Shown here in pieces: positions 1,164 through 48,310 of a stretch of 64,000 nt of DNA. Under the pieces are notes generated by a model that was given only the letters and a program-made list of their open reading frames with translations, was not told where the DNA came from and ran no database searches. This stretch comes from Eledone cirrhosa (taxonomy: Eukaryota), in assembly GCA_964016885.1 (NCBI GenBank), contig OZ024740.1:155248001-155312000 (forward strand), given 5' to 3'. A program made the translations under genes and the position numbers. Numbering within the stretch: the first letter of the stretch is position 1; each line of letters starts with the position of its first letter.

Positions 1164-1306
1164 CTGCAGATTGTAAAATAATGAAGAAACTGAAAGAATT
1201 TTTTTCTCCATGGGAAGCCAGGTAAGCACAAGTGAGACAAAGCAGGGCATTAATCCAGATAGTACCATAGAGCATACTTATAGGGATGTTGTCAGCAATA
1301 AATAGT
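1164..1306 (-). CDS. Exon G (last in window) of a multi-pass membrane protein gene, NEF1-like; 5' boundary uncertain
   Basis: Donor CAG|GTAAGT at 1164/1163. Stop-free frame LFIADNIPISMLYGTIWINALLCLTCAYLASHGEKNSFSFFIILQSA. U12-like branch TCCTTTAC at 1323-1316. Must start in phase 2 to join exon F. Confidence 0.7.
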
Positions 1307-1583
1307 ATATCATTGGTAAAGGATGATAATGTATGTTTCTGTGTTTCATGTGTGTTTCCCCTTCTCTACGGAGATTTCTTTTACTAATAAGTGTGTCAAC
1401 ACCCATGAGAATATAATGTAAAAAAACAGAGAGAGAGAAAGAAGAAATGAAGTACAAACACACACTCACATACATAAACACATGCACATGTGTGTGTGTG
1501 TATATATATATATATATGTTCAGATCTAGCTGTCAAAACAGCCGAAGCTCAGCTGTTGGGGTCCTGAATCTTTATTTATTTAT

Positions 1584-2084
1584 ATCATCATCATCATCAT
1601 CACCGTTTTACGTCCGTTCTTCCACGCTAGCATGGGTTAGACGGGTTGTCCTGTTGTGGGCAGTGTCTGGTCGGCTGACCATGCCTTGCTCATACAGGAA
1701 CTGATTTGGCTTGATTTCTACAGCTGGATGCCCTTCCTAACACCAACCTCATTTACAGTGAGTGCTGGGTGCTTTTTCGTGGCGCCTACACGTCCACTTT
1801 ACAGTGTGGGCTGGGTGCTTTTTTGCCGTGGCACCTCCACGACCACCTTGCAGTGGGGGGTGTGGGGGCATATTGTCTATATGCTTCAGCTTGTACCCAT
1901 GGGAGGTCGGGTACTCTGTATTACTGCGTGACGCCAGAGGTCACGGTCATGTGTCATTGTCTTTGAGAGGTGTAATTGGGTAAGGTCGGCTTTTATCACC
2001 TCATCCCAGGTCATCTTGGGTCTTCCCACTCCGCGGTTTCCATCGACTTCTAGTGCTCTGCACCTTTTTATGCAGCTGTCATCC

Positions 2085-2089
<5 letters not shown>
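1584..2089 (-). mobile_element. RTE-clade LINE family A, 5'-truncated 3' end
   Basis: C-terminal ORF GRPKMTWDEVIKADL, near-identical to 33185-33680. (GAT)n tail, ends in (TA)n. Confidence 0.95.
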
Positions 2090-2116
<27 letters not shown>

Positions 2117-2121
<5 letters not shown>

Positions 2122-2775
2122 TATGAGCACTCGATGCTCTTACAGAGCAGAGTATAATATCACATAAGAAACGGAGAATCAGTGGTGCGACGAATAAAAT
2201 TTATTAGAGATATTACAATCATTTCTCTGGCGACCAGCTCGAGGCACGATCGATGCAATGATAAAACCTGACTCTGAAATCGCAAGATCCTCAATATGTC
2301 TCGATTCTACGAAGCAGAGTTTCCAAATGTCCAGTTACATCCACTGCCTTCACTGTGCAGCTTAGATCCTGTTGTTTTCATTCTATGAGTGGTCAAGAAT
2401 TGTACACGTTATCGGTATTTTTGGCCACTCACAACCGATATAAGAAACAACTTTGATTGACAGGTGGCAATTGAAAGGAACCAAATATACGACGGTCGTG
2501 AGTGGCCAAAAATACTGATGACGTGCTCAATTCTTGACCACTCATAGAATGAAAACAACAGGATCTAAGCTGCAGAGTGAAGGCAGTGGATGTAACTGGA
2601 CATTTGGAAACTCTGCTTCGTAGAATCGAGACATATCTGAGGATCTTGCGATTTCAGAGTCAGGTTTTATCATTGCATCGATCGTGCCTCGAGCTGGTCG
2701 CCAGAGAAACGATTGTAATATGTCTAATAAATCTTATTCGTCGCACCACTGATTCTCCGTTTCTTATGCGATATA
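2117..2775. mobile_element. Foldback Penelope-like pLTR remnant, arms about 2158-2437 and 2492-2773, in (TA)n
   Basis: About 280-bp inverted repeat around a loop of about 55 nt. Contains a hammerhead motif. Related sequence at about 38930-39030. Confidence 0.8.
2629..2725 (+). ncRNA. Type I hammerhead ribozyme with extended (62-nt) stem II
   Basis: Stem I AGACATAT/ATATGTCT (8 bp), core CTGAGGA 2637-2643, stem II base TCTTGCGA/TCGCCAGA, GAAA 2706-2709, short stem III CGATTG, cleavage triplet GTA. Confidence 0.75.
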
Positions 2776-2785
2776 TATATATATT

Positions 2786-3047
2786 CCTTTAAGTTTGATG
2801 GTTCACCACTGGATAGAGCTGGTCATTCCATATAGCCAACCATGATGTAATATTAGAAAAAGCACTCAATGTTATGCAACTCATTCATCTTTGACATTTA
2901 ATCTTGTTGGTGGTGCGAGAACGAAGTTAGTTATTATTAAGTAAAATGACAGGAGGCCAGCCTGATGAAATTCCTTCAAAGTGTTTGCTAAAATAAATCT
3001 TTGAAGGAATTTCACCAGTCCAGCCTCCTGTTATTTTACTCAATAAT
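2786..3047 (-). mobile_element. PLE pLTR remnant with short terminal inversion (family of 9478-9995 and 43975-44310)
   Basis: Shares CCACTGGATAGAnCTGGTCATTCC with the other copies. Hairpin 2933-3047, flanked by (TA)n. Confidence 0.7.
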
Positions 3048-3270
3048 ATATATATATATATCAAGCGTTAACCTAATATATCCCTTTCATATACTGTACC
3101 GATTGTGTTGTTATTTCTGTTTACCTTTTACATATATATATACTAGCATGGAAGATAGACGTTAAACGATGATGATGATATATATATATATACACATACA
3201 CACACATAAAGTTGTGGGTACAAAGAAAAGGAAAGGGCAATCAATACATAGTGTGGGTTGAGTATTTATA

Positions 3271-3780
3271 TTAACAGTTTGACTTAACTCCACACTCCCA
3301 GTTTACCTCTATGTTATATGTCTCCATCTCCTCTTCTTTACTGTCAAAGTAGGATTTCTCTCTACTTGCCGTAGGTTGTCTTAGCTTCCAGATTTTCCTT
3401 CTCCAGGCTGGCTTTTGTCTCTTAGTCCTTTTAGCACTTATTCTAAGGTCACTGACAGAATGTTGGGACATATGTACATTTTTCCCCTGGATGGGTTTTG
3501 GCATTAACAACTATTTGCTTGTCCTGTTTTCTGGGGAGAAACAGTTTGACACAGAACTACTGTTGACTTGGTTTCTACAGCTGGATGCCCTTCCTAATGC
3601 CAACTACATTTACAGTGTGTACTGGGTGCTTTTTGTCATGATACCTACATGACCACTTTACAGTATGTACTGAGTGCTTTTTACATGATACCTACACAAC
3701 CACTTTACAGTATGTATTGAGTGCTTTTTACATGATACCTACACAACCACTTTACAGTATGTACTAGGTGCTTTTTGTCA
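3271..3780 (-). mobile_element. Degenerate RTE fragments: endonuclease-linker piece (SDLRI...WRRKIWKL) and a 3' UTR with four ~41-bp tandem units
   Basis: ORF 3271..3510 resembles the RTE post-endonuclease region. 3570-3780 matches the RTE 3' UTR module. Confidence 0.65.
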
Positions 3781-3916
3781 AATATAAACAAAATAGTAAC
3801 AGAGAAATAGTTGTGCATAAAACAAAAAAAAAATTCATATAATTTTAATATGCTGACTGGTAATGACCATGGTGTTTATCATGATTAAAAAGGAGTTGGC
3901 TTAATTTAAAGGATAC

Positions 3917-3993
3917 TTAATTGCCCAGGGCACTCTGGATATCCAGAAACTGTGAAGCAATGAAAGACCTGCAAATCCTGCTAGGGAAAAACT
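3917..3993 (-). CDS. Exon F of the NEF1-like membrane protein gene (77 nt, phase 0 to 2)
   Basis: Acceptor TCTTTTTATAG. Translates SFSLAGFAGLSLLHSFWISRVPWAI. Donor GTATCCTTT (U12 consensus). Phase fits exon E. Confidence 0.8.
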
Positions 3994-4559
3994 CTATAAA
4001 AAGATATGAATGAGTGAAATAAAATTAGAAGGAGCACAAAAATGTAAATGGTAACAATAAATATAATTTTAGTGACTGTCAACAACAATAACAACAAAAT
4101 AAGTACAATGACAACAATAGCAAATAGCAATGATAAATATTTCTAACATAGGCACATAGCCAGTAATTTGAAGAAGAGGAAGTCAATTGAATCAACCCAG
4201 TACTTTACAGGTACTTTATTTTATCAACTTCATGCTGTTATATCCATTATATTAACTAGTTGTAGCCTGGGGTTTTCATTAGGACACACAGAAACACACA
4301 CACACACTTTTTTTCAATATTGACAAGATTTGCACTTAAAATTCCCCCCACCCCGAGCGAGGTGGGGTGTCAGGTGACAACACTGTCTACCTGTCTATTT
4401 ATCTTTCACACTCACACACTCTCTCACTGTATTCTCCTCTCAACAACAACCTGTCATTATAGTGAAAGTCTTTTTTTGAAGTCTGTGTTGCATTGCCTAT
4501 ATATTGAAGGACATAGAAACACACACACACACACACAAAAACTCCATACCATATAACCT

Positions 4560-6265
4560 AGAGGACAATAGGAAATTCTGGCATGACAACCTAATGGGAC
4601 ATGTAGTTGGAGCAAGATGCCTGCCAGACAGAGGGTGACCAGACTGAATGTGGTTAGAGCCATTAAAGCCAAAAGACAGGCGTGGAAAGACCGGAAAAAT
4701 GGGGGCAGCTAAGAGAGAAGCAAGTATAAGCCGCTCAGAGAGATATTGAAAAAAGAAAGTTTGCCAATGTCTTGCGACGTCAGATCAAATACGTGAAGTG
4801 TTTCGCATTGCAAAGTAGTGTGTTAGTGAGAATTGGGTTGTTGTTGGGGAAAAGTGTGTTAGAAATGACTCCGGTGCACCTTAGCACAATTGATGCTCAA
4901 AAGAAAAATGTCTGGAAATGTTACTATGAGAAACTGATGAATGTAGATAATGAATGGGAGGAGGAGAGACTACTCCCAACTGATTCACAAGAAAGGAACA
5001 GCAATTGAATATAACAGTTATAGGATCAAAGAAGCAATTAAAGAGATGATGAATGGTAAAGCTGTCAGAACAGTTTCTGAGATGCTAAAAGCATCAGCAG
5101 AAGTAGGAGTTGACTAGGAAGTAGGAGTTTGAACTAGTAACCTACATAGTCAAATCAGATAATACAAGCCGAGTCATATCCAATTACTGATGCAGCAGTA
5201 CAATCAGAAATTGCTATAAGGGCTCAGGTGATGTTCTAGAAAGGAGCAACTATAGGGGAATAAATCTAATAGATCAAGTTATCAAAGAGACAGAAAGAGT
5301 TATAGTACAGCTAATTAAGGAAATTACAGTAAAATTAGATGAGATACAGTTTGGTTTCATGTCTGGGAAAAGTACTTAGTGAGGCAACTATAAGAAAAGC
5401 TCCTAGGAATCAAAAGGTCTGAGAGTAAACTTAGCCAAAACTAAAGTGCTAGTAAGTAGGAAAGAAGATAGGACCCTGATTCCCTCAAGAAAGTGGCTCT
5501 GCTCAATATGTAGAAAAGACGTGGGCATAAACTCTATACGATGTAGTGGAATAATAGGTAGACTAACAGGAAGGGAAGACTTTGTATGTAGGGATAATCG
5601 AGGGGAAGAGTGTCAATTATATAAATCTCTTTCAATCAGAGGAAGGATCCATAGAAGTGGTTGATAATGTCTGTTATCTAGGTGACCTCATTAGCAGTGG
5701 AGGAGGGTGCTCTGAGAACAAAATAGCTAGAATAAGAATAGGATGGAAAAAGTTTAGAGAGATACTCCCACTGTTGACATAAAAAGGTTTCTTCCTATGT
5801 AAAAAGGATGACTGTATGACACCTGTGTGCAAAGTGTGATGTTGCGTTGTAATGAAACATGGGCTGTGATAGCAGAAGACATGTGTAGACTGGAGAGAAA
5901 TGAAGCAACCATGCTTCATTGGATGTGCAATGTAAATGTGAGATAAAGGCAGAGCTTGGATAAACTGGGGGAGAAATAGGTTTAAGAGGAATCCGAAGTG
6001 GCATGTAAGAGAGAAGACTGCGTTGGTATGTGATGTGCATGGATGATGATCAATGGGTGAAGAAGTGCCAGGAAATCCCAGTGGAGTGAAGCCACAGTAG
6101 AGATAGACCAAAGAAGACCTGAGCAGAGGTGGTGAGAGCTGATCTCAAATCGCTGAGACTCAGAGATGGCGAAGGAATACAACAAGTGAAGAGATGCTGT
6201 GCTAAGGACCAGTCCAACCTATGCAAGCATGGAAAAATGGACATAAAAATGATGATGATGATGGT
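4560..6265 (+). mobile_element. Old degenerate RTE LINE, internally deleted, many stops
   Basis: Fragments WKCYYEKLMN, KWLCSICRK and CYLGDLISSGGGCSE..RIRIGWKKFRE are homologous to ORF 31470..33389. (GAT)n tail. Confidence 0.9.
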
Positions 6266-6432
6266 GATATATACATACACACACACATACTTATACACTT
6301 ATACTCATATATATATATATATGAATGAATGAGTTGATAATTAACAGTACTCCTTGTAATGCACAGCATATCTATGTGTGTGTGTGTAGGTATATATATG
6401 TATGTATATGTGTGTATGTATGTGTGTATGCA

Positions 6433-6475
<43 letters not shown>

Positions 6476-6508
6476 ATGAAGATGGGTAGGTAGGTAGATA
6501 TGGTTTAC

Positions 6509-6684
6509 CTTAAATCGAATGCTACTGAGAAAAACTCCAAAAGCAACATGTGCAGTAATGCCAGCTGGTAACCAAGGGAGATAATGTGACGTGAGCCCAT
6601 AGTGATTTAGGATTGGGTAACAAAGGAGTGTTGTAATCATACCACTTAGCCATCTGAGTCGAACCACCAGCTGGTAGGAAACTC
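6509..6684 (-). CDS. Exon E of the NEF1-like membrane protein gene (176 nt, phase 1 to 0)
   Basis: Acceptor TCTACTTTCACAG, donor AAG|GTAAAC. (G)VSYQLVVRLRWLSGMITTLLCYPILNHYGLTSHYLPWLPAGITAHVAFGVFLSSIRFK lies within ORF 6341..6739. Confidence 0.88.
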
Positions 6685-6994
6685 CTGTGAAAGTAGACAA
6701 AAGAGAGTCTGTTAGTATCAACCATAACAATGTGTGCATGTGTGTGTAAGTCCTTAAAATCTACACACACACATATACAAAGAATGCATTTTCTATCTCA
6801 GTCATGTTGTTACTATAAGAAGTTTGCTTTCCAGTCACAAAGTCCTAGCTTCTAACTCTACCTTTGCTCCTGTAAATAGTTATTTCTCTAAAGCCAGTCA
6901 TACATTTAATTATGTATGTTGTTTGTACATATATGCTGAGTAATTACATCCTAGAAATAAATGATTAAAATATCATTCTTATCTTTAAGCAGTG

Positions 6995-7257
6995 GAGACT
7001 TCTGGTGTCCTTGGTCCTAATTGGCTACCTTCAGGTGTGAGCCTCGCGAGCTGGAATGGCTCTTCCAATGTGTCCCCCTCACCATCCACTGGAGAAATAC
7101 GTTTTCTACTCTGTCCACCAGAGCCATGGGGTGGCAACACGTGGGCCCCTATTTGCTTATAATAGTGAGAGATGGGGTGAGTGAGAGAGATGGAGGCAGT
7201 GACAGTGGGAATTTGATTCCATTATGGTCAGACCTAATATATATGTATATATTTATT
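6995..7257 (+). mobile_element. CRE-like (restriction-like endonuclease) non-LTR 3' remnant; second copy 36325-36628 on minus
   Basis: EPRELEWLFQCVPLTIHWRN resembles the RLE C-terminal LFQRLSxxIQRGN motif. Two dispersed copies. Confidence 0.6.
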
Positions 7258-9362: not shown

Positions 9363-9435
<73 letters not shown>

Positions 9436-10658: not shown

Positions 10659-10726
10659 ATATTATATATATATATATATTATATAATATATATATATATA
10701 TATAATATATATATATAATATATATA

Positions 10727-13019
10727 TGCTGAGGAAAGAAAGTTCAAGCATGTTCTACAACGCGATGACCAAAAACGTGAGGTGTTCAGGATTGCTAGGC
10801 AATGCGTCAAGGAAAACCGTGATATTGTCGGGGAGAAGTGTGTACTAAACGACGATGGCACACTTGCCATCACCGACGCTGATAAGAAGGTAGCTTGGAA
10901 GTGTCACTATGAAAGGCTACTAAATGAGGAGAATAAATGGGAGAAAGACAGTCTCCCCCATATCGACCCAATAGAGGGACCAGCAGTGTTAGTCGAGGGG
11001 AGTATAATAAGTAAGGCAATCAAGGATATGAAGACGGGTAAGGCAGCTGGGCCTTCGGAAATAGTTGCTGAGATGCTGAAGGCATCTGGCACGGTGGGAC
11101 ACACCATGGTCACCCGCATAGTTAACCAAGTCGTACAGAATGGGGTTGTTCCGAAGGACTGGCATAGCAGCATCATCGTTAACTGTTATAAGGGTAAAGG
11201 AGACGCCCTAGATAGGAGTAACTATAGAGGCATTAAATTAATCGACCAGGTCATGAAGGTCACGGAAAAAGTAATAGCGCAACTAATCAGAGAGAGAATT
11301 GACCTAGATGAAATGCAGTTCGGGTTTGTGTCAGGCAAAAGTACCACAGACGCTCTTTTCATAGTACGACAACTACAGGATAAGTACCTAGCTAAAGGTA
11401 AACCCCTCTACTTAGCTTTTGTCGACTTGGAGAAAGCCTTCGACAGAGTCCCCCACTCCATTATCTGGTGGGCTCTTAGAAAACTAGGCGTTGACGAATG
11501 GCTTGTGAGGGCTATACAAGCCATGTATAAAGAAACAGTCAGCAAGGTTAGAATTAACAACGAATATAGTGAAGAGTTTAGCGTAAAAGTTGGCGTCCAT
11601 CATGGCTCTGTTCTCAGCCCCCTACTATTTATTATTGCCCTTCAGGCTATAACAGAGGAGTTCAAGACAGGCTGCCCATGGGAACTCCTATACGCAGACG
11701 ACCTGACACTCATAGCGGAATCAATGGCCGAGCTAGAGAAGAAATTCCAAACATGGAAGCACGGCCTAGAGTCAAAAGGACTTAAAATTAACCTGGCTAA
11801 GACCAAAGTTCTAGTTTGTAGGAAAGAAAACAAGGCGGCGATCCCTTCTGGGAAATGGTCGTGCTCGGTGTGTAGGAAAGGCGTAGGTAGAAACTCCATT
11901 TTATGTCCTAAATGCAAAGTATGGGTGCATAAAAGATGTAGTGGGATCACAGGTAAGCTAACTAAGAACATAGATTTTACATGTGGCCGGTGTTCTGGTG
12001 CAATAAGTAGCAGCAAGTGCCCACAAAATACTAGCTCTTTCAATTGCGCAGAGGGTTCTATAGAAATAGTGGACAGCTTCCGTTACCTGGGCGATAAAAT
12101 CAGCAGTCGGGGAGGGTGCTCTGAAAGTACTGTAGCTAGAGTCAGAACTGGTTGGAAAAAGTTCAGAGAGCTTATACCACTATTAGCTGCTAAAGGGTTC
12201 TCCCTAAAAATGAAAGGCAGGTTGTACGATGCCTGCATACGAACAGCAATGCTGCATGGCAGTGAGACCTGGGCATTGTGTGCAGAGGATATACGCAGAC
12301 TAGAGAGGAACGAAGCTTGCATGCTCCGCTGGATGTGTAACAGTAATATACGTGAACGGCAAAGCATAAACGAAGGAAAAAATTAGAGATAAGAGGGATC
12401 AGATGTTGTTTACTCGAGAGAAGGCTACGTTGGTATGGACACGTGATGCGCATGAAAGTCGATAGCTGTATAACAAAGTGCAGGGCAATAAAGATAGACG
12501 GTAGTCACGGAATAGGCAGACCTAGAAAAACCTGGGACGAGCTGATAAACTCCGACATCACACACTTACACCTCTCCAAGACAATGTCACTGGACCGAGA
12601 CCTTTGGCGGTACTCTGTAACAGAGAAGACCCGCCTTACCTAAATATATAGTAAAACCTACTCCAGCCAGTAGGCATCTCTAACAAATACACCCCGTCCC
12701 ACCACCACCACCCCCACCCCATCCACACCACCCCGTTCTATGTAAAGTTATGTTGGTGCCGCGCCATCCAGGCCGAAACAAATGAGATCGTGTAGGTGTC
12801 ACGACAAAAAAACACACAGTCCACGCTGTAATGTGGCCGTGTAGGCAACACGGTAAAAACCTCCCAGACCCACACTGTAAATGTGGTTGGTGTTAGGAAG
12901 GGCATCCAACTGTAGAAAACCTGCCAGACAGTCCTATGCGAGCAAGACAATCACTCTTGCCTCAAGTGGGACTACCCCCGTCCAAACCCATGCAAGTGTG
13001 GAACACGGACGTTAAACGT

Positions 13020-13050
<31 letters not shown>
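10727..13050 (+). mobile_element. RTE family B LINE, 5'-truncated, RT plus PHD finger, frameshifted near 12372
   Basis: ORF 10782..12386 has QFGF, AFVDLEKAFDRV, GSVLSPLLF and YADD. A 4-bp deletion relative to the copy at 37861-37890 breaks the frame. (GAT)n tail. Confidence 0.97.
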
Positions 13051-13054
13051 ATAT

Positions 13055-14275
13055 AGAACTAGAGAATAAATTCCAAACCTGGGAGCAGGGACTAGAGAGA
13101 AAGGGCCTCAAAGTCAACATGACAAAGACTAAGGTCCTTGTAAGTAGATGAGAAAACAGAACCCAGATCCCCTCAGGGAAATGGCCTTGCTCAGTATGTA
13201 GGAAAGGTGTAGGTAGGAACTCCATTCTCTGCCCCAAATGCAAACAATGGGTACACAAGAGATGTAGCGGGATCTCAGGAAGCTTAATTAAGAATGTAGG
13301 ATTCACATGCAGCAGCTGTGCTGAAACAGCAAGCAAACAGCCACAGGAAACAAGTACCACCAATCTCTGGGAGGGCCCTGTAGAAACAGTAGACAGCTTC
13401 TGCTACCTAGGTGACCGAATTAGCAGCGGAGGTGGGTGCTCAGAAAGTACAATAACTAGGGTAAGAACGGGATGGAAGAAGTTTAGGGAACTACTACCAC
13501 TGCTAGCTGCAAAAGGCTTCTCCCTCAGAATGAAAGGCAGACTGTATGATGCGTGTATCCGAACAGCGATGTTGCATGGTAGTGAGACCTGGGCGCTGAA
13601 GGTGGAAGACTTACGTAGATTAGAGAGAAACGAAGCCTGCATGCTCCGATGGATGTGTAACAGTAATATACGTGAACGACAAAGCATAAAGGAATTGAGA
13701 GAGAGACTGAGCATAAGAGGAATCAAATGCTGCGTGCAGGAGAGGCGGTTACGCTGGTATGGACATGTGATGCGTATGAAGGATGACAGCTGCATAAAAA
13801 GGTGCAGAGCACTAGAAGTTGATGGAAACCGCGGAGTGGGGAGACCCAAGATGACTTGGGATGAGGTGATAAAAGCCGACCTTACCCAACTACACCTCTC
13901 AAAGTCAATGACACACGACCGTGACTTCTGGCGTCACGCAGTAATACAGGGTACCCGACCTCCCATGGGTACATGCTGAAGCATATAAACAATATGCCCC
14001 CACTCCTCCCCACCGCAAGGTGGTCGTGGAGGTGCCACGGCAAAAAAGCACCCAGCCCACACTGTAAAGTGGACGTGTAGGCGCCACGAAAAAGCACCCA
14101 GCACTCACTGTAAATGAGGTTGGTGTTAGGAAGGGCATCCAGCTGTAGAAATCAAGCCAGACCAGTTCCTGTATGAGCAAGGCATGGTCAGCCGACCAGA
14201 CACTGCACACAACAGGACAACCCGTCTAACCCATGCTAGCGTGGGAGAACGGACGTAAAACGGTGATGATGATGA

Positions 14276-14279
<4 letters not shown>
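13055..14279 (+). mobile_element. RTE family A, 5'-truncated
   Basis: Near-identical to 32465-33680, with a CGA to TGA change near 13149. Confidence 0.97.
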
Positions 14280-14325
<46 letters not shown>

Positions 14326-14356
14326 TACACACACTATATATATATATATATATATA

Positions 14357-16476
14357 TTCTACACACACTACCAGCCCACGTCTGCAGCTCAAAGGAAGTC
14401 TTGGAGCGACTACACCATCTGGCGCCCAACACCAGAAAGGACAACGGTTATGCCTTCAGTCTTGATGTGGTCGCCCTTTATACCTCCGTACCAGCATCCC
14501 CAGCTGTCGACCTGTTGACCGAACGAGTCCGAGCATCTAACTTACACTGCTTCGAACTCACACACACGGACATCCACCAACTCCTCTCCTTCGTTGTGGA
14601 TAATGCACTCTTCAATTTCCTCGGCCACACGTACAAACAAATCTCTGGGCTACCTATGGGCTCTAGTCTGTCCGGCATACTTGCGATCTCGTACATGGAC
14701 CACCTGGAACGCAAGGCACTCAATACCTGCCAACCCAACGCCGTCGCCTTCTACTCCAGATACGTTGATGATATCCTGATACTTACTTCTTCCCGGGAGA
14801 TGGCGAATGAAATTCACCAAATCTTCAACGATACTGACCAACACATCGATTTCACCATCGAACACCCAGGAGAAGACGGGTCACTCGCCCTCCTCGACTT
14901 CCGTATCAACATCTCGGAAGAAGGAGACATAAACACCACTTTCTACCGCAAAGCAGCGTGCAAGGACTTATTTGTGCATTATAACTCAGCCCTCCCCAAC
15001 AACGCTAAGAGAGGCTATGTCCTAAATGAACTGACACGGATCACTAACAGATGCAGCGACCCGATGGGTGGTCTCACCCATACCACGCAATTCCGTAATC
15101 TACTCAGATCTAATGGTTATCCCAAGCGACTGATTAACGGAATTAGAGACCCCAGACCCAGTAGACTGACACCCACTAGAAAACTTAATATTAGCAGGTG
15201 CTTCTTTAAAATCCCCCACCTGAGTGAATATACCATGAACGCCATCCGCAGGGCCATACGGACGGAGGGACTTGACATACATTTGGCCCACACAGGACCT
15301 TCGCTGCGAAGATGCCTCTCCAACAAACCCTACGAGGCAGATGGGACGTGTTCCCTCAGCAACTGCCCGATACGGGGGGCAGATTGCCTACGCACCTATG
15401 TCGTATATAAGATTCAATGCGATAAATGTAACAAGTTTTACATAAGTAGCACCATCCGACCCCTACATGTTCGTATCAAGGAACATATCAACACCAACGC
15501 ATCTTCCTTCCGTAAACATATCCTTAAATGCGGAAACCCACAGGGTAGACCCTTGGTCACAGTCCTAACGACTGAACGCAGCATCGGATCCTTAAGGATA
15601 AAGGAAGCACTTGTTATTAAGAACCTCAGACCCCCACTTAACAACCGGGCTGAGAGAAATGAGCTGACATGGCTAACTTAACCATAATGACCATTCACAG
15701 CCTACGGCCTGCTATCTTCACACACACGCACGTATATGCATACCCATACGCATGCACACACACTTCTATATTTTACACGCACACATGTTTTTACAACCTA
15801 CCACCTTTCACACCCTTTGATTTCCAGCTTCTACAGCCCACTATCTTTCACACACAAACGCACTCACACATATACACACACAGTTACACACACACATGTA
15901 TACCCATACGCTTACACACACACACATCTATATTTATACACGCACACATATTTTACAACCTACCACCTTTCACACCCTTTGATTTCCAACTTCTACAGCC
16001 CACTATCTTTCACACACACACACACTCACACATATACACACTTACACTTATACACACACAGTCACACACACATATATATTTACATACACATATCTTACGG
16101 CTTTCACACGCTAACGCACCCTCTTGATTTAACCCATTTGGTCAGTAGCTTTTGCCACAGCTTATCACGCGCACGCACATTCTTTCCTTCGTTTAAATTT
16201 TAAATATTTTTCTCCCCATAACGGCATTCCTGTCTTAACGACATCACCACTTTCTCCGCTTGGCCTGTTTTCCCCCCTTTTGGAACTTTTCCCCCGTTGA
16301 TGGGCGTGAGCCCGAAATATTGGGATTAAATCTCTACTACGGTAACCCTTCTACCTTTGTTTTGTTTTCATCTTTGTCTCTCTCAACTTTCACTTTCACC
16401 TGTTTTTCCTATCTATATTTCACTTCCTACCTCGAGATTTCCCTTTGCATTGTTGTGGCTTTCTTAAATACGTATG

Positions 16477-21095: not shown

Positions 21096-21174
21096 CTAAA
21101 TGCTCTGTGAACTGCCTGATTGGGAGAAGGGTCGCCAGGAATACACTGGCACAGCTAACAAACACCATTTCAAT
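21096..21174 (-). CDS. Exon D of the NEF1-like membrane protein gene (79 nt, phase 0 to 1)
   Basis: Acceptor TGTCTATTTGATAG, donor TAG|GTAAGT. IEMVFVSCASVFLATLLPIRQFTEHL(G). Phases match both neighbours. Confidence 0.88.
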
Positions 21175-21258: not shown

Positions 21259-21798
21259 CAGTAGTAGTAGTAGTAATGATGATGATGATATGTGCATGTG
21301 TATCCACTGTTCTATTAACTATCATTCATACTTAAATATTTTTGAAAAGATGACATGGGATAGACACATCTGAAATGTTATTGATCATAAATCTGCTCAA
21401 TTAAATTTCCACAGGGAGAAAACAGCAACAATCTCAACATTTCAACACTTGCAATGCCATATGTCTAATGAAAGATACTGCCTATAGTGTTCAAATCATT
21501 TTTTAAATAATCAAAGATTTGGAGGGATTTAGTAATATAACCAACTTTCTCATTATTAAGGTCCTTGTGTAAATATATGATGGAAGGTTTTTAAAAATAT
21601 ATATAAACATTATATAAACAAACAGTTTTGTATCATAGAATTAGAGGCAATCTCAGGCAGTTTGTTATAAAAAGGGTTACAAGAGCTCTTGTGAAGGTCA
21701 TAAGATACAGGCTCTCTTCTTAAGACTAACTTATTCCAACACTAACAAAAGATAAAAAAAAAGAAAGATAAAAACAAAGACAAAAATAAACAACATAC

Positions 21799-21991
21799 CA
21801 GGAAACTTGCTGAGAAAATTGTGAGATCCTTTGACAAGATTGAAGCGGAGAAGAATAAGAATATTGGTGAAAATATGTATAAGAATGTCATGAGCCCTGT
21901 TAATAAAGGATCTATTATGTTGTCTTCTTGTCCCATGTGCATCCGGAAAGATGAGGCTGTAGGAACTAAAAATAACTGGAGAAGACCAAAC
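21799..21991 (-). CDS. Exon C of the NEF1-like membrane protein gene (193 nt, phase 2 to 0)
   Basis: Acceptor TTTCTTTTCCAG, donor CTG|GTATGT. FGLLQLFLVPTASSFRMHMGQEDNIIDPLLTGLMTFLYIFSPIFLFFSASILSKDLTIFSASFL. Confidence 0.9.
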
Positions 21992-22012
21992 CTGGAAAAG
22001 AAATAATAATAT

Positions 22013-22670
22013 TAATTGTTTCTACTTTTGGCACAAGGCCAGCAATTACCCAGTGCATTACTGGTACTTTATTTTATTGACCCCGTAAGGATGAAAGGCA
22101 AAGTTAGCCTCAGTGGGATTTGAACTCAGATCATAAAGGGACATAACTCTATGCTTCAAAGCATGGTGTCCGACTCTCTACCGATACTGCCAATCCACCT
22201 ATATATAAGAAATAATAATATTAATAATAGTTTTTTATATAGGCACAAGGCCAGCAATTTTGGGGGAGGGGAAAGTCGATTAAATCAACTCCTCCAGTAC
22301 GTTACTGGTACTTTATTTTATCAACCCCATAAGGATGAAGTGCAAAGCTAACCCCAGCAGGATTTGAACTCAGAACGTAAAGGGTCATAACTCAATGCTG
22401 CAAAGCATGGTGTCCAACATTCTATCGATTTTACCAATCCACCACCCTAATAATAATATTAGCCATAACAATAATTGTTTCTACTTTTGGCAGAAGGCCA
22501 GCAATTAACCCAGTGCATTACTGGTGCTTTATTTTATCGACCCCACAAGGATGAAACGCAAAGTTAACCTCGGCCGGATTTGAACACAGACCGTAAAGGG
22601 CCATAACTCTATGCATCAAAGCATGGTGTCCGACCCTCAACCAATACTGCCAATCCACTGCCCTATTACT
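22013..22670 (-). mobile_element. Three tandem Meta-type SINE copies abutting the exon C acceptor
   Basis: Three consecutive copies at 22013-22200, 22225-22445 and 22470-22665, with (TTA)n tails. Confidence 0.88.
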
Positions 22671-34541: not shown

Positions 34542-34657
34542 TTTATCTATACATAGTATATATCATATTTATTATATATAAATTAATGAGTTTATTTATT
34601 ATATATTATTTACAATTTGCGTGTAGGTAGGTCTTTTTGGAAATAGTGTTGGGGGGC

Positions 34658-35845
34658 GTGTCCCCGCTGTTCGTTGTTTTGAATATCTGCCTTTCGGTAG
34701 AAGTTGCAGTGGATCCCTCCCTGTTCCGTGATGTTGATTCCGCCTGCAGGGACCTGTTCGTCCACTACAAGTCTGCCCTCCCTAACACTGCTAAAAGAGG
34801 ATATATCACGAACGAGATCACGCGAATTAAAAACAGATGCAGCAATTCTGCGAGTGGTGTCACTGATACCAAGCGATTCCTCAAAGTGCTGGAGACAAAC
34901 AGGAACCCTGCCTCACTCACAGACAGAATAGGAGACACCAGACACAAGAGACAGAGAGGCACCCAAGGCAAGTGCTTCCTTAAAATACCACACCTGAGCG
35001 AGAATACCACCAACGCTATCCGCAAGGCTATACGGAGGGCCCCTCCCTGCGAAGATGCCTCTCCAGGAAACTCGGGAAATCAACTGACACGTGTTCCCTC
35101 AGAGACTGCCCGATGCACCATGTGAACTGTTGCCTATGCACATACGTCGTGTATAAGATAGAATGTAACAAGTGCAACCACTACCATATAGGTAGCACAA
35201 TCTGGTCGCTACACATTCGGATCAAGGAGCACATTAACACCAGGGCCTCGTCTTTCCGGAAACACACAACCAAATGAGGAAACAAAGACGGAAGGCCCAT
35301 TGTCACAATTCTAGCGACGGAAAGAAACGTCGACACATTACGAATCAAGGAAGCACTTTGGATCAAACGCCTAGGGCCACAAATAAATAACCGATCCGAG
35401 AGAAGCTAAATGAGGTGGTTAAGTAAACAAACGATACAACAACACACGCACACACACACACACACGCGAGACAGCAACACACGCACACACAGTAGTATTC
35501 CACCATACGAACATACAACACTGCTAATACAGACGAATGAGGCAACAACACACGCACACACTCACACACAAGCGAGACAACAACACACACACACACACAG
35601 TAACATTCACCAAACAGGCAGAGAATACTACCACCACCACGCACTACTCAACACTGCTAATACTGAAACCAGCACAGACAGACAATACAATGGATTGACA
35701 GCTAACGCCACCCCACTCCCACAATTAAAAGAACTATTTCGGCCGCCGACCTATACTTGACCGACCCCATTTCACGCGCACGCGCGCTCTGCTGAATACC
35801 TCAGATATTCGAAACAACAAACAGCGGAGGACACGTTTCGCACCA
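34658..35845 (+). mobile_element. Penelope-like element, 5'-truncated with inverted 5' pLTR piece, GIY-YIG remnant
   Basis: DLFVHYKSALP..KRGYI and VVYKIECNKCNHYHIGST..RIKEH. 34658-34690 is the reverse complement of 35802-35835. An internal deletion near 35035 shifts the frame. Confidence 0.9.
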
Positions 35846-37456: not shown

Positions 37457-37826
37457 TCATCATCATCATCACCGTTTTACGTCAGTTCTTCCACGCTAGC
37501 ATGGGTTAGACAGGTTGTCTTGTTGTGGACAGTGTCTGGTCGGCTGACCATGCCTTGCTCATACAGGAACTGATCTGGCTTGATTTCTACAGCTGGATGC
37601 CCTTCCTAACACCAACCTCATTTACAGTGAGTGCTGGGTGCTTTTTCGTGGCGCCTACACGTCCACTTTACAGTGTGGGCTGGGTGCTTTTTTGCCGTGG
37701 CACCTCCATGACCACCTTGCGGCGGGGGGTGTGGGAGCATATTGTCTATATGCTTCAGCTTGTACCCATGGGAAGTCGGGTACTCTGTATTACTGCGTGA
37801 CGCCAGAGGTCACGGTCATGTGTCAT

Positions 37827-37857
<31 letters not shown>

Positions 37858-38547
37858 CGTGAACGGCAAAGCATAAACGAACTAAGGAAAAAATTAGAGA
37901 TAAGAGGGATCAGATGTTGTTTACTCGAGAGAAGGCTACGTTGGTATGGACACGTGATGCGCATGAAAGTCGATAGCTGTATAACAAAGTGCAGGGCAAT
38001 AAAGATAGACGGTAGTCACGGAATAGGCAGACCTAGAAAAACCTGGGACGAGCTGATAAACTCCGACATCACACACTTACACCTCTCCAAGACAATGTCA
38101 CTGGACCAAGAGCTTTGGCGCTACACAGTTATACAGAAGACCCGCCTTGCCTAAATATATAGTAAAACCTACTCCAGCCAGTAGGCATCTCTAACAAACT
38201 ACACCCCGTCCCGCCACCACCCCCACCCCATCCACACCACCCCGTTCTATGTAAAGTTATGTTGGTGCCGCGCCATCCAGGCCGAAACAAATGAGATCGT
38301 GTAGGTGTCACGACAAAAAAACACACAGTCCACGCTGTAATGTGGCCGTGTAGGCAACACGGTAAAAACCTCCCAGACCCACACTGTAAATGTGGTTGGT
38401 GTTAGGAAGGGCATCCAACTGTAGAAAACCTGCCAGACAGTCCTATGCGAGCAAGACAATCACTCTTGCCTCAAGTGGGACTACCCCCGTCCAAACCCAT
38501 GCAAGCGTGGAACACGGACGTTAAACGTTGATGATGATGATGATGAT
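37457..38547. mobile_element. Divergent pair: RTE-A 3' end (minus, 37457-37832) and RTE-B 3' end (plus, 37855-38547) around (TA)n
   Basis: High identity to 1584-1960 and 12345-13050. Confidence 0.95.
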
Positions 38548-40646: not shown

Positions 40647-40762
40647 CCAAAAGCTATGGTAAGATAAGGCAGCAGGCTTAGTTTTACTACAGACATCGTT
40701 GCCCATATCCATAATGCCACAGAGAGAGCAGGGTATGCAGTAAATAGCAGCTTTTCAATGGT
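40647..40762 (-). CDS. Exon B of the NEF1-like membrane protein gene (116 nt, phase 0 to 2)
   Basis: Acceptor TCTTTTTATTGCAG, donor TGG|GTAAGC. TIEKLLFTAYPALSVALWIWATMSVVKLSLLPYLTIAF(G). Not present in the ORF track. Confidence 0.9.
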
Positions 40763-43258: not shown

Positions 43259-43706
43259 CTGGTCTTAACCGCGGAGGCGACAGTTGCCCCGATGGCATTA
43301 CTCTCTTCCCATTTGAAGAAAATAGATCCCTCATCTGGGACGCCACATGTTGCGACACATTCTCCACCTCCAACCTAGTCGCTTTGGTCTTCCTTTCCTC
43401 TGTATTGCAGGCTGCCTCTTTGTACCAGTCTCCATCGAGACCTCAGGCATACTTGAACCCTGGACTGATGAGCTCCTCTACAAGATCGGAACGTCAGCAG
43501 CCCATCTGAAGAAGAAGCCCCGTGAGGTGGGGTGGCCGTTGCTGGCCATTGTCCATGGGGCACAGCCCCAGCATCACCGCACCCTAGGCCTAGAGCCCAT
43601 CACCTTCTCTCTCTACCCCTCCCATTCTTCTGTGATCCTAGAGCCCTTAACCTTCCCTTCATTTTCCATTTTTAAATATCTGGAGTGTTGTTATTTGAAA
43701 TAGATC
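43259..43706 (+). mobile_element. CRE-like RLE non-LTR 3' remnant with TSD TGTTTACAATT (relatives at 51790-51955 and 62280-62610 minus)
   Basis: PDGITLFPF..LIWDATCCDTF and FVPVSIETSG are PD-(D/E)xK RLE motifs. 11-bp direct repeat at 43248 and 43707. Confidence 0.75.
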
Positions 43707-43906
43707 TGTTTACAATTTTTTGATTTTTATTAATAAAATATATTTAGCTAAAAATTTCTGAAACAATTGATCACTGATGTCAATGATTGTTTATAAAAAA
43801 AATATTAAAAAATCACTCCATCCTACAGTGATAAGATTTAATTTGATAATGACGAAATTGAGACTGACAATGATGAGATTGTTAATGATAAATTTGATGG
43901 GGAAAC

Positions 43907-43974
<68 letters not shown>

Positions 43975-43978
<4 letters not shown>

Positions 43979-44310
43979 AATAAAAATCAGAGAACTGTCG
44001 TCCTCTCTGATTTTTCGGACCCATGGTTTTTACATATTCCTTTGTTATATTTCGAATACCTGATGATATCACCGGATTCATATGGAACCCGGTCATTGAA
44101 ACGATCATAGTATAATAAACCTTTCAAGGATTTACACCAGTCCACCCTCCTGTTATTTTTATTTATAATTAACTCCGTACTCGCACCACCAACTACACAA
44201 ATGAAGACGGGTGAACTGCACTACGTTGAGTACTCTCCACAATATTACACCAAGATTGACCATACGGAATGACCAATTCTATCCAGTGGTGAACCAACAA
44301 ACCTAAAGGT
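43975..44310 (+). mobile_element. PLE pLTR (solo) with hammerhead, in (TA)n
   Basis: Contains the ribozyme at 44056-44113. The 3' part matches 2786-3047 and 9478-9995. Confidence 0.75.
44056..44113 (+). ncRNA. Type I hammerhead ribozyme, canonical core
   Basis: ATAC-CTGATGA-stem II (ACCGG..CCGGT)-GAAA-CGATCA-TA-GTAT. Stem III is one change from palindromic CGATCG. Confidence 0.7.
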
Positions 44311-46288
44311 ATATATATATATAAATATAGTGTGTCAACTGGAGCAATGTGAAATAAAGTGTCTTGCTCAAGGAAACAACACATCACCCAGTCTGAGAAT
44401 TGAACTCACAACCTTGCAATCGAAAGGTTGTGAGTTTATTTCACATTGCTCCAGTTGACTCAGCTGTAGAAATGAGATGATAGGACTGGAGTCCATATCA
44501 TTCCACTGTAAAGTGGTCGTGGAGGTGCCACGGCAAAAAAAGCACCCAGCACTCACTGTAAATGAGGTTGGTGTTAGGAAGGGCATCCAGCTGTAGAAAT
44601 CAAGCCAGAATCAGTTCCCGTCCCACCCTTGCAAGCAGGGAAAAGGCGGACGTAAAATGAAATGATGATGATGATATAAAGGTGTATATGTGAGTGGAGA
44701 AGGAAAACAGGAATGAGGCAAAGAAAAAAAGTATTAAAAAAAACAATAGGAAGAAATCAAGATAAAAAGAAAGGCAAGTGGAAAGATCAAAGAAATAGAC
44801 TTGAAGAGGGAAAAGAAGATAGAATTAAAATCAAACAAGAAAAATAAATGTGATCTGTTTAATTAAGAGATCTAATCAACATTGTAAATATGATATAATC
44901 CTTATTTTTAACTAAAGAAATCTTTGTGACAGTGATCAAGGCAATGGCTAGACACAGACTTTTCTTTTTTCTTGTCACACAAATAATCATATATGATCAA
45001 CATGACAGAGCAATACCCACAGAATATTTTCAGGGCTCCCAAAACTAGATGGGACGCCTTTAGGATTTTCTTCTAGCTCTTGGAGTTCTGAGTTCAAAAC
45101 TCGCTGTAGTCTACTTGCATGTCAGACTTACAGGTCTACCAAATATAAACCAACTCTTTGAGTACATGGAAACTAGGAAAAGATTCAACAACAGAAACTT
45201 TTAGCTGTTTTACAGCTTCCCTTGTTTCCTCTTTTCATTTTCGTTTTCTTTTGCATAATCAGCCTCCCATTGGCCTTCAATATTTGAATAAATTTTCCCC
45301 CATTTTCTTTTTTTTTCTTTTAGTTTTTAGTTTATTTTTAGGTTTTGTTTTATTACTTGTCTCACTAGCTCTTTTTGATTACCAACTGTCATGGTTTAGT
45401 AGCTCCATATGGACATTTAAATTGAATAAATAAATAATCTGCAGCCCAGTTTAACACCACTACCTCACCCTCCAGTCCCTTTAGTGGAGTCGACTGTGTT
45501 AAAAATATCTGGGCCAGGCTTCTTGTTTGATGATACCTTTCTCCTTCCAATTCAACAATCTTGGCTGCTATTTCTAGCAAAACATGTCAGTGTGTAGCAG
45601 CTTCCTCCCACATAGGTTTGGCCACTTTATATTATTTCTACACAAAGTAGTGTTGGCTTCACCTAATCCTTATATTTTAGCCAATAATTTTCATACATGT
45701 TAACATATACAAAAATTATTCATTTGTATTCCATCTAATACATAGTAAGATAATTGTTTCTACTTTTGGCACATGGCCAGTAATTACCCAGTGCATTACT
45801 GGTACTTTATTTTATGGACCCCGTAAGGATGAAAGGCAATGTTAACCTCGGCGGGATTTGAACTCAGAATGGTAAGGGCCGTAACTCCATGCGTCAAAGC
45901 ATGGTGTCCGACCCTCTACCGATACTGCCAATCCACCGCCCTAGTAAGATAATAGCTATAAACATTCTTGTGATTGTTCTTTAGCTCTGAGGCTATGACT
46001 GATTAAGCAGAACTATAATCAAAGGCATACCAACTATGCACCTCCCACCTATTTTTCTCCCAAACATAGTGAATCTAAAATTACATTGTGATTCTAATGT
46101 GCCCTTCCTTTTTCTTTCAAGATAGTAGCGTTTCATTTGAGATTTGGCTGCTATTTCCAACTGGTTGAGCAACCATGTAAAAGCACACTTTTGTAGTTAT
46201 ACTATTGACAGATATCAACCTACATTTCAAGCAACGCACACACACAAACTCAGGTACAAGCACACAGGCATACACTCATATACTGTGT

Positions 46289-46332
<44 letters not shown>

Positions 46333-46933
46333 CGTGCATTAGGCAATAGAAATGGGAGAAATAGAATTCAATATTAAAAGAAGAGTATATATATTATTTA
46401 ATAACTGTAAAGTTATATATATAAGTGACTGAAGAGTCCTAGGGTTTCATGCCAAAGCACTTGTCAAACTTGACAAGGGCTTGACAGGAAACTCTAGGGC
46501 ATTGAGTCATATATATATAATATATATATATGTATGGAGGCACATGACTTAGTGGTTAGAGCATTGGCCTTGCAATCGAAAGGTGTGAGTTCAATTGTCA
46601 GACCGGGTGATGTGTTGTTTCCTTGAGCAAGACATTTTATTTCACATTGCTCCAGTTCACTCAGCTGTAGAAATGAGATGATAGGGACTGGGGTCTCTAT
46701 CATTCCACTGCAAAGTGGTCGTGGAGGTGCCACGACAAAAAAGCACCCAGCCCACACTGTAAAGTGGTCGTGGAATTGCCGCGGGAAAAAAAGCACCCAG
46801 CACTCACTGTAAATGAGGTTGGTGTTAGGAAGGGCATCCAGCTGTAGAAATCAAGCCAGAATCAGTTCCCGTCCCACCCTTGGAAGCAGGGAAAAGCGGA
46901 CGTAAAATGAAATGATGATGTATATATATACAC

Positions 46934-46966
<33 letters not shown>

Positions 46967-47031
46967 TTCTTTATTAGCCATACAGGCAATATTAGAATAT
47001 AATAATATAGTATATATATATATATGTGTGG

Positions 47032-47064
<33 letters not shown>

Positions 47065-48192
47065 GCAAACCCATTATTTGTCTCCTTATTTTTAAAACAT
47101 CACAGATTAAAAAGAAAAAAAAAAATTCCATGTAAACTCAATCGTGTACATCCATTTGGAATTCCTGAAAGATATGGTGTTGACATTTCCAATACTGCAG
47201 TGAACTTTTGAAATAATACCATCCTAGGTTTGCATTTGATGAAGACTCCACCAGGATTAAATAGAGCTCTGTGAAGACTCATCAAGATTAGTTATTGATT
47301 ATTCAAACCACATATGATGTTACTCCATTAAAATGATACAAATGACATTTTCTATCTTTGTTCTTGTTCTTTGCTTATTTTTTAGGCGGATGGGGCATGG
47401 TCAGCCATATTGTCATCTATGTTATTTTTTTTGTTGCTTTTGTTTTTAATATAATTAGGATTATGTTTCCAATGAAATTCTTGCTTTTGGTTATTAATAC
47501 CATGAAGTCAACTTTGTCTTTCATCCTTCTGAGGTTAATAAAAAAAAAGTACCAATCAAGTACTGGGGTCTATTTAACTGATTTACCCCTCCCCTAAGAT
47601 AGCTGGCCTTGTGCCTATGTTAAAATTAATATTGTGGTAAGACCATAAGGTCAATTTTGTCTTTCATCCTTCCGAGGTTAATAAAAAAGTACCAATCAAG
47701 TAATCACGTACTGGGGTCTATTTAACTGACTTACCACTCCCCCATGATAGCTGACCTTGTGCCTATGTTAAAACCAATATCATGGTAACACAATGAGTGG
47801 CAGAATCTTTAGAGCATCAGACAAAAGGCCTGGTGATATTTGAGCCAACTCTTTATATTTTTATTCCAAATTTTGCTGAGATCAATTTTGCCTTTCATCA
47901 TTCTAGAGTTGGTAACGGAGTTAATTTAATTGACTTTCATATCTCCACAAATTACTGACCTTGTACATAAATAAGAAACCATTATTAATATTAAGATATG
48001 GTGATGAATTGGTAGAACTGTTAATGTATTGGACAAAATGCCTTACAGTATTTGTTCCAGCTCTTTATGTAGTGAGTTCAAATCTTGCCGAGGTTAGCTT
48101 TGCTTTTCATCTTTACAGAGTTGATAGAACATAGTACCAGTAACGCACTGGAGTAAATTTAATGAGAGGTAGATAGGGAGAAAGAGGCTTAC

Positions 48193-48310
48193 CAAACAGA
48201 GTTCAAATTCTTCACATCGGAATGCAGAGAACTGTAATATAATCCAGCCACCAGTCAATAATATGAAGAAATTGGTAATGAAGATGAGAGCAACATTTAA
48301 CCAAGACAAC
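48193..48310 (-). CDS. Exon A (first identified) of the NEF1-like membrane protein gene (118 nt, phase 2 to 0)
   Basis: Acceptor CTTTGCTTTTGCAG, donor TTG|GTAAGC. LSWLNVALIFITNFFILLTGGWIILQFSAFRCEEFELCL. The GxWxxLQF...E..LF pattern is recalled from NEF1. Confidence 0.9.

What the first reader, a model, noticed from the sequence alone, without database searches (positions are those of the whole stretch)
1164..48310. Hidden 7-exon animal gene resembling plant NO EXINE FORMATION 1
Seen: seven minus-strand exons over 47 kb whose phases chain exactly (2-0, 0-2, 2-0, 0-1, 1-0, 0-2, 2-1) into about 300 stop-free, very hydrophobic residues; six of the seven have AG acceptors, and the exon G start was chosen to fit the phase. 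Recalled from memory: GxWxxLQF-x5-E-x8-E-xx-LF, WAT and PxxSSF occur in this order in Arabidopsis NEF1, a membrane protein needed for pollen exine and lipid handling. Inference: this is an uncharacterised metazoan NEF1-family gene of unknown function. Its start and end were not found.
Basis: partly seen in the sequence, partly recalled or inferred. Interest (0 to 1): 0.7.

Follow-up and report, generated by a model that had tools for sequence, protein, structure and literature searches.

The report
Octopus pollen-gene cousin with odd intron
An octopod gene that is conserved across marine invertebrates encodes a full-length relative of the plant pollen-wall membrane protein NEF1 and likely handles lipids in internal membranes; one of its introns is likely cut by the rare minor spliceosome at unusual GT-AT ends.

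Summary
Confirmed. The seven minus-strand exons are real (300 codons, no stop, phases as stated). They are coding exons 4-10 of a 19-exon, 265-kb, single-copy gene, the orthologue of Octopus sinensis LOC115211136 (932 aa; 274 of 300 identical). One junction (C-D) is seen spliced in a contig of this species.

NEF1 homology holds along the whole length: an animal profile scores Vanilla 'No exine formation 1' at 199.5 bits, controls at most 3.8. Relatives occur in molluscs, annelid, brachiopod, echinoderms, coral, plants, an amoebozoan, a diplonemid and a hemimastigote. The animal branch follows the species tree, so recent transfer is unlikely. The model has about 31 helices and no fold match.

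The missing AG before exon G is explained. Intron F-G has a minor (U12-type) donor GTATCCTTT and a branch site 10 nt upstream, and likely ends in AT. Two other animal contigs carry the same donor at the same site; one has a canonical branch site and AG end. That junction was not read in this species' RNA.

Function is inferred: lipid handling in an internal membrane (about 0.4). Orthologues are already in databases as 'uncharacterized'. Moderate interest.

The parts
48193..48310 (-). Exon A (coding exon 4), residues 110-148; carries GxWxxLQF
40647..40762 (-). Exon B (coding exon 5), residues 149-187; invariant E151, WAT
21799..21991 (-). Exon C (coding exon 6), residues 188-251; PxxSSF
   Evidence: joined to exon D in a contig of X1
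21096..21174 (-). Exon D (coding exon 7), residues 252-278
6509..6684 (-). Exon E (coding exon 8), residues 278-336
3917..3993 (-). Exon F (coding exon 9), residues 337-362
3908..3916 (-). U12-type 5' splice site GTATCCTTT of intron F-G
   Evidence: same donor at the same site in L016 and L017
1307..3916 (-). Intron F-G, 2610 nt, likely U12-type with GT...AT ends
1316..1324 (-). U12-type branch site ATCCTTTAC (7 of 9 to TTCCTTRAY); predicted branch A at 1317, 10 nt before the AT acceptor (1308-1307)
   Evidence: U12 snRNA of this genome carries the pairing motif
1164..1306 (-). Exon G (coding exon 10), residues 362-410

Best explanation
This is the middle of an intact, single-copy octopod gene for a roughly 930-residue NEF1-family membrane protein, predicted to have about 30 membrane helices and likely to move or supply lipids (sterol esters or glycerolipids) at an internal membrane. 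Shown: the exons, the orthology, full-length homology to NEF1-named plant proteins, and one spliced junction (identity about 0.97). Inferred: inheritance from an early eukaryote with patchy loss, so that the plant plastid and pollen role is a later use (about 0.85). Inferred: intron F-G is removed by the minor spliceosome, with U11 reading GTATCCTTT, U12 reading the branch site, and the acceptor set by distance from the branch point at an AT rather than by an AG (about 0.88). Inferred and weakest: lipid handling as the molecular job, carried over from the Arabidopsis mutant (about 0.4).
For: Orthologue P0001, 274 of 300 identical. One locus in G000, ATG to TGA over 265 kb, 19 coding exons. C-D join in X1. 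Profile search: 148 hits at E<=1e-3 among 1.84 billion proteins; 16 of 20 looked up carry an organism name. Animal HMM vs Vanilla NEF1 199.5 bits over HMM 31-927 of 940, best of 114 shuffled or reversed controls 3.8; non-animal HMM vs P0001 176.5 bits, best of 126 controls 3.1. ESM Atlas first hit 'No exine formation 1' at 0.87, a lead only. Animal clade SH-aLRT 100 with molluscan classes and echinoderms grouped as expected; 9 of 9 intron positions shared with L016. Model pLDDT 91, pTM 0.79. U12 signals, conservation and machinery. GT-AT minor introns are a documented rare class, 7 of 66 non-canonical cases (PMC1557818, passages). The nef1 mutant alters tapetal plastid lipid and lowers sterol esters (PMC12346373 and PMC3220415, passages).
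Against: No Pfam family for the NEF1-like region in 27 proteins scanned, so no tested sequence feature points to lipids. The functional evidence is one plant mutant, read only through reviews. Plant NEF1 is described as plastid-located, which cannot hold for an animal; the octopus N-terminus is acidic (11 D/E in 36 residues) while the plant ones are Ser/Thr-rich, and the G-[ML]-[KR]-x-[IV] tail of most non-animal members is missing in animals. The F-G junction was not read in this species' RNA. The branch site departs from consensus at 2 of 9 positions, and the A reported just before the acceptor of animal GT-AT introns (bioRxiv 10.1101/2022.09.24.509304, passage) is T here if that position is counted from the terminal dinucleotide. 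The tree is a quick, midpoint-rooted one with no AU test.
Confidence: 0.5

Rival explanations
1. Same gene and ancestry, but the protein is an ion or small-solute transporter or channel, and the plant lipid defect is secondary.
For: Polar and charged residues at or within hydrophobic helices are conserved from animals to plants and protists: E151 (100% of both groups), E415, K464, N766, Q135, D804 (helix limits). A review calls NEF1 a 'plastid membrane transporter' (PMC12346373, passage).
Against: Such residues can be structural salt bridges. The only reported phenotype is lipid-related.
Confidence: 0.22
2. It is a helical-repeat membrane scaffold that shapes or organises a membrane for surface-coat secretion, working in one pathway with DEX1 (an FG-GAP propeller with one membrane anchor). 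Plants co-opted the pathway for primexine.
For: The best, non-significant structural neighbours of the full model are alpha-solenoids and designed helical repeats. This genome also encodes a DEX1-like protein (PF23722 92-97 bits, FG-GAP repeats, C-terminal hydrophobic segment). Both are Arabidopsis pollen-wall genes (PMC3220415 Table 1).
Against: Co-occurrence was seen in one genome only, on different contigs. Solenoid-like hits are usual for any all-helical model.
Confidence: 0.2
3. Animals gained the gene by transfer from a plant or alga.
For: Patchy distribution. The octopus profile's plant hits are distant, with nothing named from fungi or choanoflagellates among 20 looked up.
Against: Animals form one clade apart from, not inside, streptophytes. 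Coral, echinoderms, annelid, brachiopod and three molluscan classes have it. Plastid-free protists of three other supergroups have it. An old minor intron and 9 shared intron positions. A very early transfer into the animal stem is not excluded.
Confidence: 0.07
4. Intron F-G is an ordinary intron whose AG was lost by an assembly error, or the real acceptor is another in-frame site (for example 1312 or 1309).
For: The junction was not read in this species' RNA. Two gene models of other octopods use other junctions (Argonauta K-Y-I-L-F, O. vulgaris N-D-I-L-F). 8 of 24 starts tested keep the frame.
Against: None of the in-frame starts has AG. Gene-model read-throughs in four other cephalopods put Ile (ATH) before L363, i.e. 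AT at the same place. 9 of 9 Logan cephalopod proteins that span the site, and the RefSeq models of O. sinensis and O. bimaculoides, read K-L-F. The donor is an exact U12 match, conserved in L016 and L017.
Confidence: 0.1

Closest known systems
Octopus sinensis LOC115211136 / O. bimaculoides LOC106878824 (uncharacterized proteins)
   Same: Direct orthologue: 274 of 300 identical over the window's exons; one locus in this genome.
   Different: Database names give no family or function.
Plant NO EXINE FORMATION 1 (Arabidopsis At5g13390; Vanilla and Chara proteins named so by UniRef)
   Same: Collinear homology over nearly the full length, shared motifs, very hydrophobic multi-pass architecture.
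   Different: About 18-20% identity overall and about 170 residues shorter; acidic rather than Ser/Thr-rich N-terminus; lacks the C-terminal tail of non-animal members; no plastid or pollen context. Arabidopsis itself was not compared.
Non-canonical U12-type introns with GT-AT ends (human and mouse DEADC1, SLC24A6; PMC1557818 Tables 2-3)
   Same: U12 donor, branch site close to the acceptor, non-AG end, mis-mapped by gene predictors, and end-switching between orthologues (GT-AG in L017, GT-AT in cephalopods).
   Different: A mollusc example in an unrelated gene; the AT end appears shared by octopods and a cuttlefish; inferred here rather than read from cDNA of this species.

Membership tests
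NEF1 sequence family | Significant collinear homology over most of the length to proteins named No exine formation 1 | tested here: met
   Vanilla 199.5 bits, Chara 171.3 bits; three collinear stretches across HMM 31-927 for Vanilla; best of 114 controls 3.8
NEF1 sequence family | Reciprocal match: a profile of non-animal members finds the octopus protein | tested here: met
   176.5 bits for P0001; 21 of 21 animal-clade proteins above 100 bits; best of 126 controls 3.1. The non-animal set was itself collected with the octopus profile.
NEF1 sequence family | Large polytopic membrane protein (about 27 predicted helices in Arabidopsis, a recalled figure) | tested here: met
   31 helices of 13 or more residues in the model, all with a hydrophobic core; 21 by a strict hydropathy cut-off against 22 for Vanilla. 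Prediction only.
NEF1 sequence family | Best reciprocal hit to Arabidopsis At5g13390, or assignment by the PANTHER/InterPro family model | not testable with these tools
   The Arabidopsis sequence was not among the named hits; no PANTHER library is held; Pfam has no model for the region
NEF1 as functionally described in Arabidopsis (plastid, primexine) | Plastid location, with a Ser/Thr-rich non-acidic N-terminus | tested here: not met
   Octopus N-terminus 11 D/E and 5 S/T in 36 residues; Vanilla 3 D/E and 26 S/T in 64; animals have no plastid. Composition only.
NEF1 as functionally described in Arabidopsis (plastid, primexine) | Loss changes lipid accumulation | not testable with these tools
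   Needs a knockout; plant result seen only in review passages
U12-type (minor) intron | 5' splice site RTATCCTT | tested here: met
   GTATCCTTT at the exon F boundary fixed by homology; 2 of 4043 minus-strand GTs read GTATCCTT, chance per site about 4e-4
U12-type (minor) intron | Branch site like TTCCTTRAY close to the acceptor, without a pyrimidine tract | tested here: met
   ATCCTTTAC, 7 of 9, branch A 10 nt from the end; the other six introns score 5-6 of 9 at 21-34 nt; L017 has TCCTTGAC at 11 nt
U12-type (minor) intron | Minor snRNAs present in the genome | tested here: met
   U12 128 bits, U11 two copies at 96 and 94 bits; U4atac and U6atac not searched
U12-type (minor) intron | Position and signals conserved in distant orthologues | tested here: met
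   GTATCCTT at the same phase-2 site in 2 of 2 metagenome loci that reach it (L016, L017; L018 does not)
U12-type (minor) intron | GT-AT ends read from a transcript of this species | tested here: inconclusive
   No reads were obtained for this junction; the end is inferred from frame and from orthologous proteins
U12-type (minor) intron | Splicing depends on the minor spliceosome | not testable with these tools
   Needs snRNA knockdown or a minigene
Known transporter or channel folds | Structural match to a solved fold | tested here: inconclusive
   best N-terminal row adenylyl cyclase 5 membrane region, Z 8.7, rmsd 5.2, 167 aligned, below the level trusted for helical bundles

The most novel reading that the evidence does not exclude
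NEF1 is not a plant plastid novelty but an ancient eukaryotic 30-helix membrane machine with an undescribed fold. Together with DEX1 it forms a lipid and surface-coat export module kept in marine invertebrates and protists, lost from the usual model animals, and co-opted by plants for the pollen wall.
Probability: 0.2. Interest if true: 0.75.

Novelty: new member of a known kind. Interest (0 to 1): 0.45.

Why it matters
NEF1 was published as a 'novel plant protein' and its molecular job is still open. Full-length relatives in plastid-free animals and protists mean the core job cannot be plastid- or pollen-specific. They also offer easier test systems (sea urchin, oyster, amoeba) and a short list of invariant residues (E151, S201, E415, K464, P592, N766). 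The confident model has no clear solved relative, which makes it a structure target. The minor intron explains why gene models of this gene go wrong in several cephalopods and gives a natural GT-AG versus GT-AT switch at one conserved site. None of this overturns a principle: both the family and the intron class are known.

Tried and rejected
Pfam: no family for the NEF1-like region in 2 + 25 proteins (the RWP-RK and RVT_1 hits are on extra parts of two longer proteins).

Sequence search of the PDB with the 99-row profile: 2 weak rows (E 0.001 sodium-pumping rhodopsin, E 0.03 ALMT9), taken as composition matches. Foldseek found no match at E<=0.001 for the full model or for an N-terminal model of a natural fragment. 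VIA-wide best Z 9.8 (rmsd 13.2, 341 aligned, a designed repeat) and 8.7. This shows neither that the fold is new nor that it differs from known ones; the middle and C-terminal parts were not folded alone.

Complex prediction of P0001 36-898 with the DEX1-like C-terminal 137 residues returned no answer.

Word-based protein searches were insensitive: 2, 4 and 2 hits. No RNA holder was listed by record. The first metagenome scan found nothing. L018 matches only 26 residues and was dropped. No earlier findings of this scan. Ariizumi 2004 is not held.

An AC acceptor two bases downstream (start 1304) was rejected because it gives a stop. RTATCCTTT is not enriched window-wide (2 seen, 1.8 expected), so only its position counts. 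A second ATATCCTTT seven bases into the intron after exon 14 was rejected as a donor because the GT site fits the protein. Literature one search was badly framed and uninformative.
Full report
Observation. The seven minus-strand exons are at A 48310-48193, B 40762-40647, C 21991-21799, D 21174-21096, E 6684-6509, F 3993-3917 and G 1306-1164. Six acceptors are AG and all seven donors begin GT. Exon C found two proteins, from Octopus sinensis and Argonauta hians. The O. sinensis protein P0001 (932 aa) matches all seven exons in order, with 274 of 300 residues identical. The genome is 3.0 Gb; that it is an octopod is inferred from this identity.

The whole gene. P0001 gave 17 matches in G000, all on the minus strand of one stretch of contig C1 (that search used a stricter first look, so weak paralogues could be missed). 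One more short exon lies just beyond the window. The flanking stretches give an ATG at C1:155453141, a TGA after C1:155188084, and 19 coding exons over about 265 kb. The other 17 coding introns, read by eye from these outputs, have GT donors and AG acceptors. The window holds exons 4-10.

Expression. No run was on record as RNA. A 1176-nt contig of X1 carries exon D at its positions 99-178 and exon C at 179-372, with no differences and nothing between; contigs of X2-X4 run through the intron. So one of the six junctions in the window is seen spliced, in one study. The other five were not read. Full-length 932-residue ORFs on 3.1-4.6 kb Logan contigs of a related cephalopod cluster also point to mRNA (inference from contig length).

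Family. A profile of four cephalopod proteins found 148 proteins at E<=1e-3, 73 at 1e-10 and 29 at 1e-30. I looked up 20 of them and 16 carry an organism. Animals: Mactra, Haliotis, Babylonia, Biomphalaria, Owenia, Lingula, Acanthaster, Lytechinus, Oculina. Others: Quercus, Vanilla, Chara, Closterium, Luapelamoeba, Artemidia, Spironema. The Vanilla and Chara proteins are named 'No exine formation 1' by UniRef. A 21-sequence animal HMM scores Vanilla at 199.5 bits in three collinear stretches over HMM positions 31-927 of 940, and all 16 non-animal proteins at 83.7 bits or more; the best of 114 shuffled or reversed controls scores 3.8. A 16-sequence non-animal HMM scores P0001 at 176.5 bits, the best of 126 controls at 3.1. 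Pairwise BLAST gives 30% identity over 226 columns at the N-terminus and a second, C-terminal hit. Arabidopsis NEF1 itself was not retrieved. None of the named hits is a vertebrate, arthropod, nematode or fungus, but 128 hits were not looked up, so loss in those groups is not established.

Ancestry. In a quick ML tree of 43 long rows (901 columns; short fragments left out), 24 rows including all named animals form one side of a branch with SH-aLRT 100. Cephalopods, bivalves and gastropods group as molluscs (99) and echinoderms group (98). Streptophytes sit among the protists on the other side. The root is a midpoint and no AU test was run. L016, a metagenome contig closest to the Mactra protein, has nine introns at the same positions and phases as the octopus gene. 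Vertical descent from at least the cnidarian-bilaterian ancestor is well supported. Descent from an early eukaryote is the simplest reading of members in Amoebozoa, Discoba, Hemimastigophora and plants (supergroup assignments from my own knowledge), but a very early transfer is not excluded.

The AG-less acceptor. Intron F-G (2610 nt) starts GTATCCTTT, the minor-spliceosome donor consensus (recalled), at a boundary fixed by homology; only 2 of 4043 minus-strand GTs read GTATCCTT. Its 3' end has ATCCTTTAC (7 of 9 to TTCCTTRAY) with the A 10 nt from the end and no pyrimidine tract; the other six introns score 5-6 at 21-34 nt. Of 24 exon G starts tested, 8 keep the frame, none has AG, and only 1306 (intron ending AT) gives K-L-F. 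K-L-F is what the RefSeq models of O. sinensis and O. bimaculoides and 9 of 9 Logan proteins spanning the site read. Other models stumble here: Argonauta K-Y-I-L-F, O. vulgaris N-D-I-L-F, and O. bimaculoides and Acanthosepion models that read into the intron. All four put Ile (ATH) before L363, so the AT is shared and not an assembly slip (inferred from codons). Three fragments and the Mactra model read Y-P-F/L at this point, the donor in frame. At DNA level L016 and L017 both have GTATCCTT at the same phase-2 site, and L017 ends with TCCTTGAC and an in-frame AG 11 nt after the branch A. U12 and U11 genes are in G000, and the U12 gene carries GUAAGGA, which would pair with 6 of 7 branch-site bases (pairing by eye). 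Sheth et al. report GT-AT as 7 of 66 non-canonical U12 introns, competent for splicing, often mis-mapped, and often switched between orthologues (PMC1557818, passages). Larue and Roy report that minor introns are well conserved in octopus (10.1101/2022.09.24.509304, passages; its tables are images and its supplements were not seen, so this intron may be listed there). The junction was not read in this species' RNA, so GT-AT remains an inference (about 0.88).

How it likely works. The model (99 rows, pLDDT 91.2, pTM 0.79) has a disordered acidic N-terminus and 31 helices of 13 or more residues with short loops. Conserved polar residues include Q135, E151, S201, E415, K464, N766 and D804. The structure searches gave nothing above the level trusted for helical proteins. 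The only functional data are from Arabidopsis, seen in review passages: a plastid integral membrane protein needed for primexine (PMC3220415), whose loss changes lipid accumulation and lowers sterol esters (PMC12346373). The original paper was not available. I commit to lipid movement or supply at an internal membrane (about 0.4), against solute transport (0.22) and a membrane scaffold acting with DEX1 (0.2). A DEX1-like gene is present in this genome, which keeps the last idea alive without showing any link.

Novelty. The orthologues are in databases as uncharacterized. All 19 papers holding 'no exine formation' and all 8 holding 'AT5G13390' are plant or algal studies by their search listings. 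I read passages of two of them, not whole texts, and most subscription journals are not searched. Automatic family databases may already group the animal proteins with NEF1; the Atlas features point that way and PANTHER could not be checked. One oyster paper mentions DEX1 by its plant name (PMC13280272, listing only), so such labels do reach animals. Verdict: a real gene, a new member of a known but unexplained family, with a likely new example of a rare intron class. Interest 0.45.

Noticed in passing
L015:1-1914 (G000:C4, about 248991761-248993674): DEX1-like gene: at least 637 codons in one open frame, FG-GAP repeats, DEX1 beta-sandwich (PF23722, 92 bits) and a C-terminal hydrophobic segment. 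DEX1 is a second Arabidopsis pollen-wall gene with an octopus relative.
   Followed up: partly
window 14230-15678 (+); a similar, broken stretch near 34631-35274 (+): Reverse-transcriptase ORF (RVT_1, E 3e-11) ending in a GIY-YIG-like stretch by eye; likely a Penelope-like retroelement inside intron D-E.
   Followed up: partly
window 10719-13976 (+): LINE-type reverse transcriptase with a PHD finger, and a second PHD-bearing fragment behind it; fragments of the same family at about 4700-5800 and 37800-38150.
   Followed up: partly
window 49537-51396 (-): A further LINE reverse transcriptase in two frames.
   Followed up: partly
window 58504-59503 (+): Two ORFs that look like a Tc1/mariner-type transposase by eye; no Pfam hit at E<=0.001.
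   Followed up: partly
window 1-1099: Tandem array of about 30 copies of a 38-base unit with variable AAC runs, starting 65 bases downstream of exon G.
   Followed up: no
window 22013-22200 and about 21430-21650: Very high-copy interspersed repeats; contig depth in the millions at 22000-22200.
   Followed up: no
L007 (intron after coding exon 14): An ATATCCTTT, the AT-AC minor donor consensus, lies 7 bases inside a normal GT donor; probably chance.
   Followed up: partly
P0024: The Mactra orthologue carries an unrelated automatic name ('Pleckstrin y domain-containing A member 1') and its model appears to read into the minor intron.
   Followed up: partly
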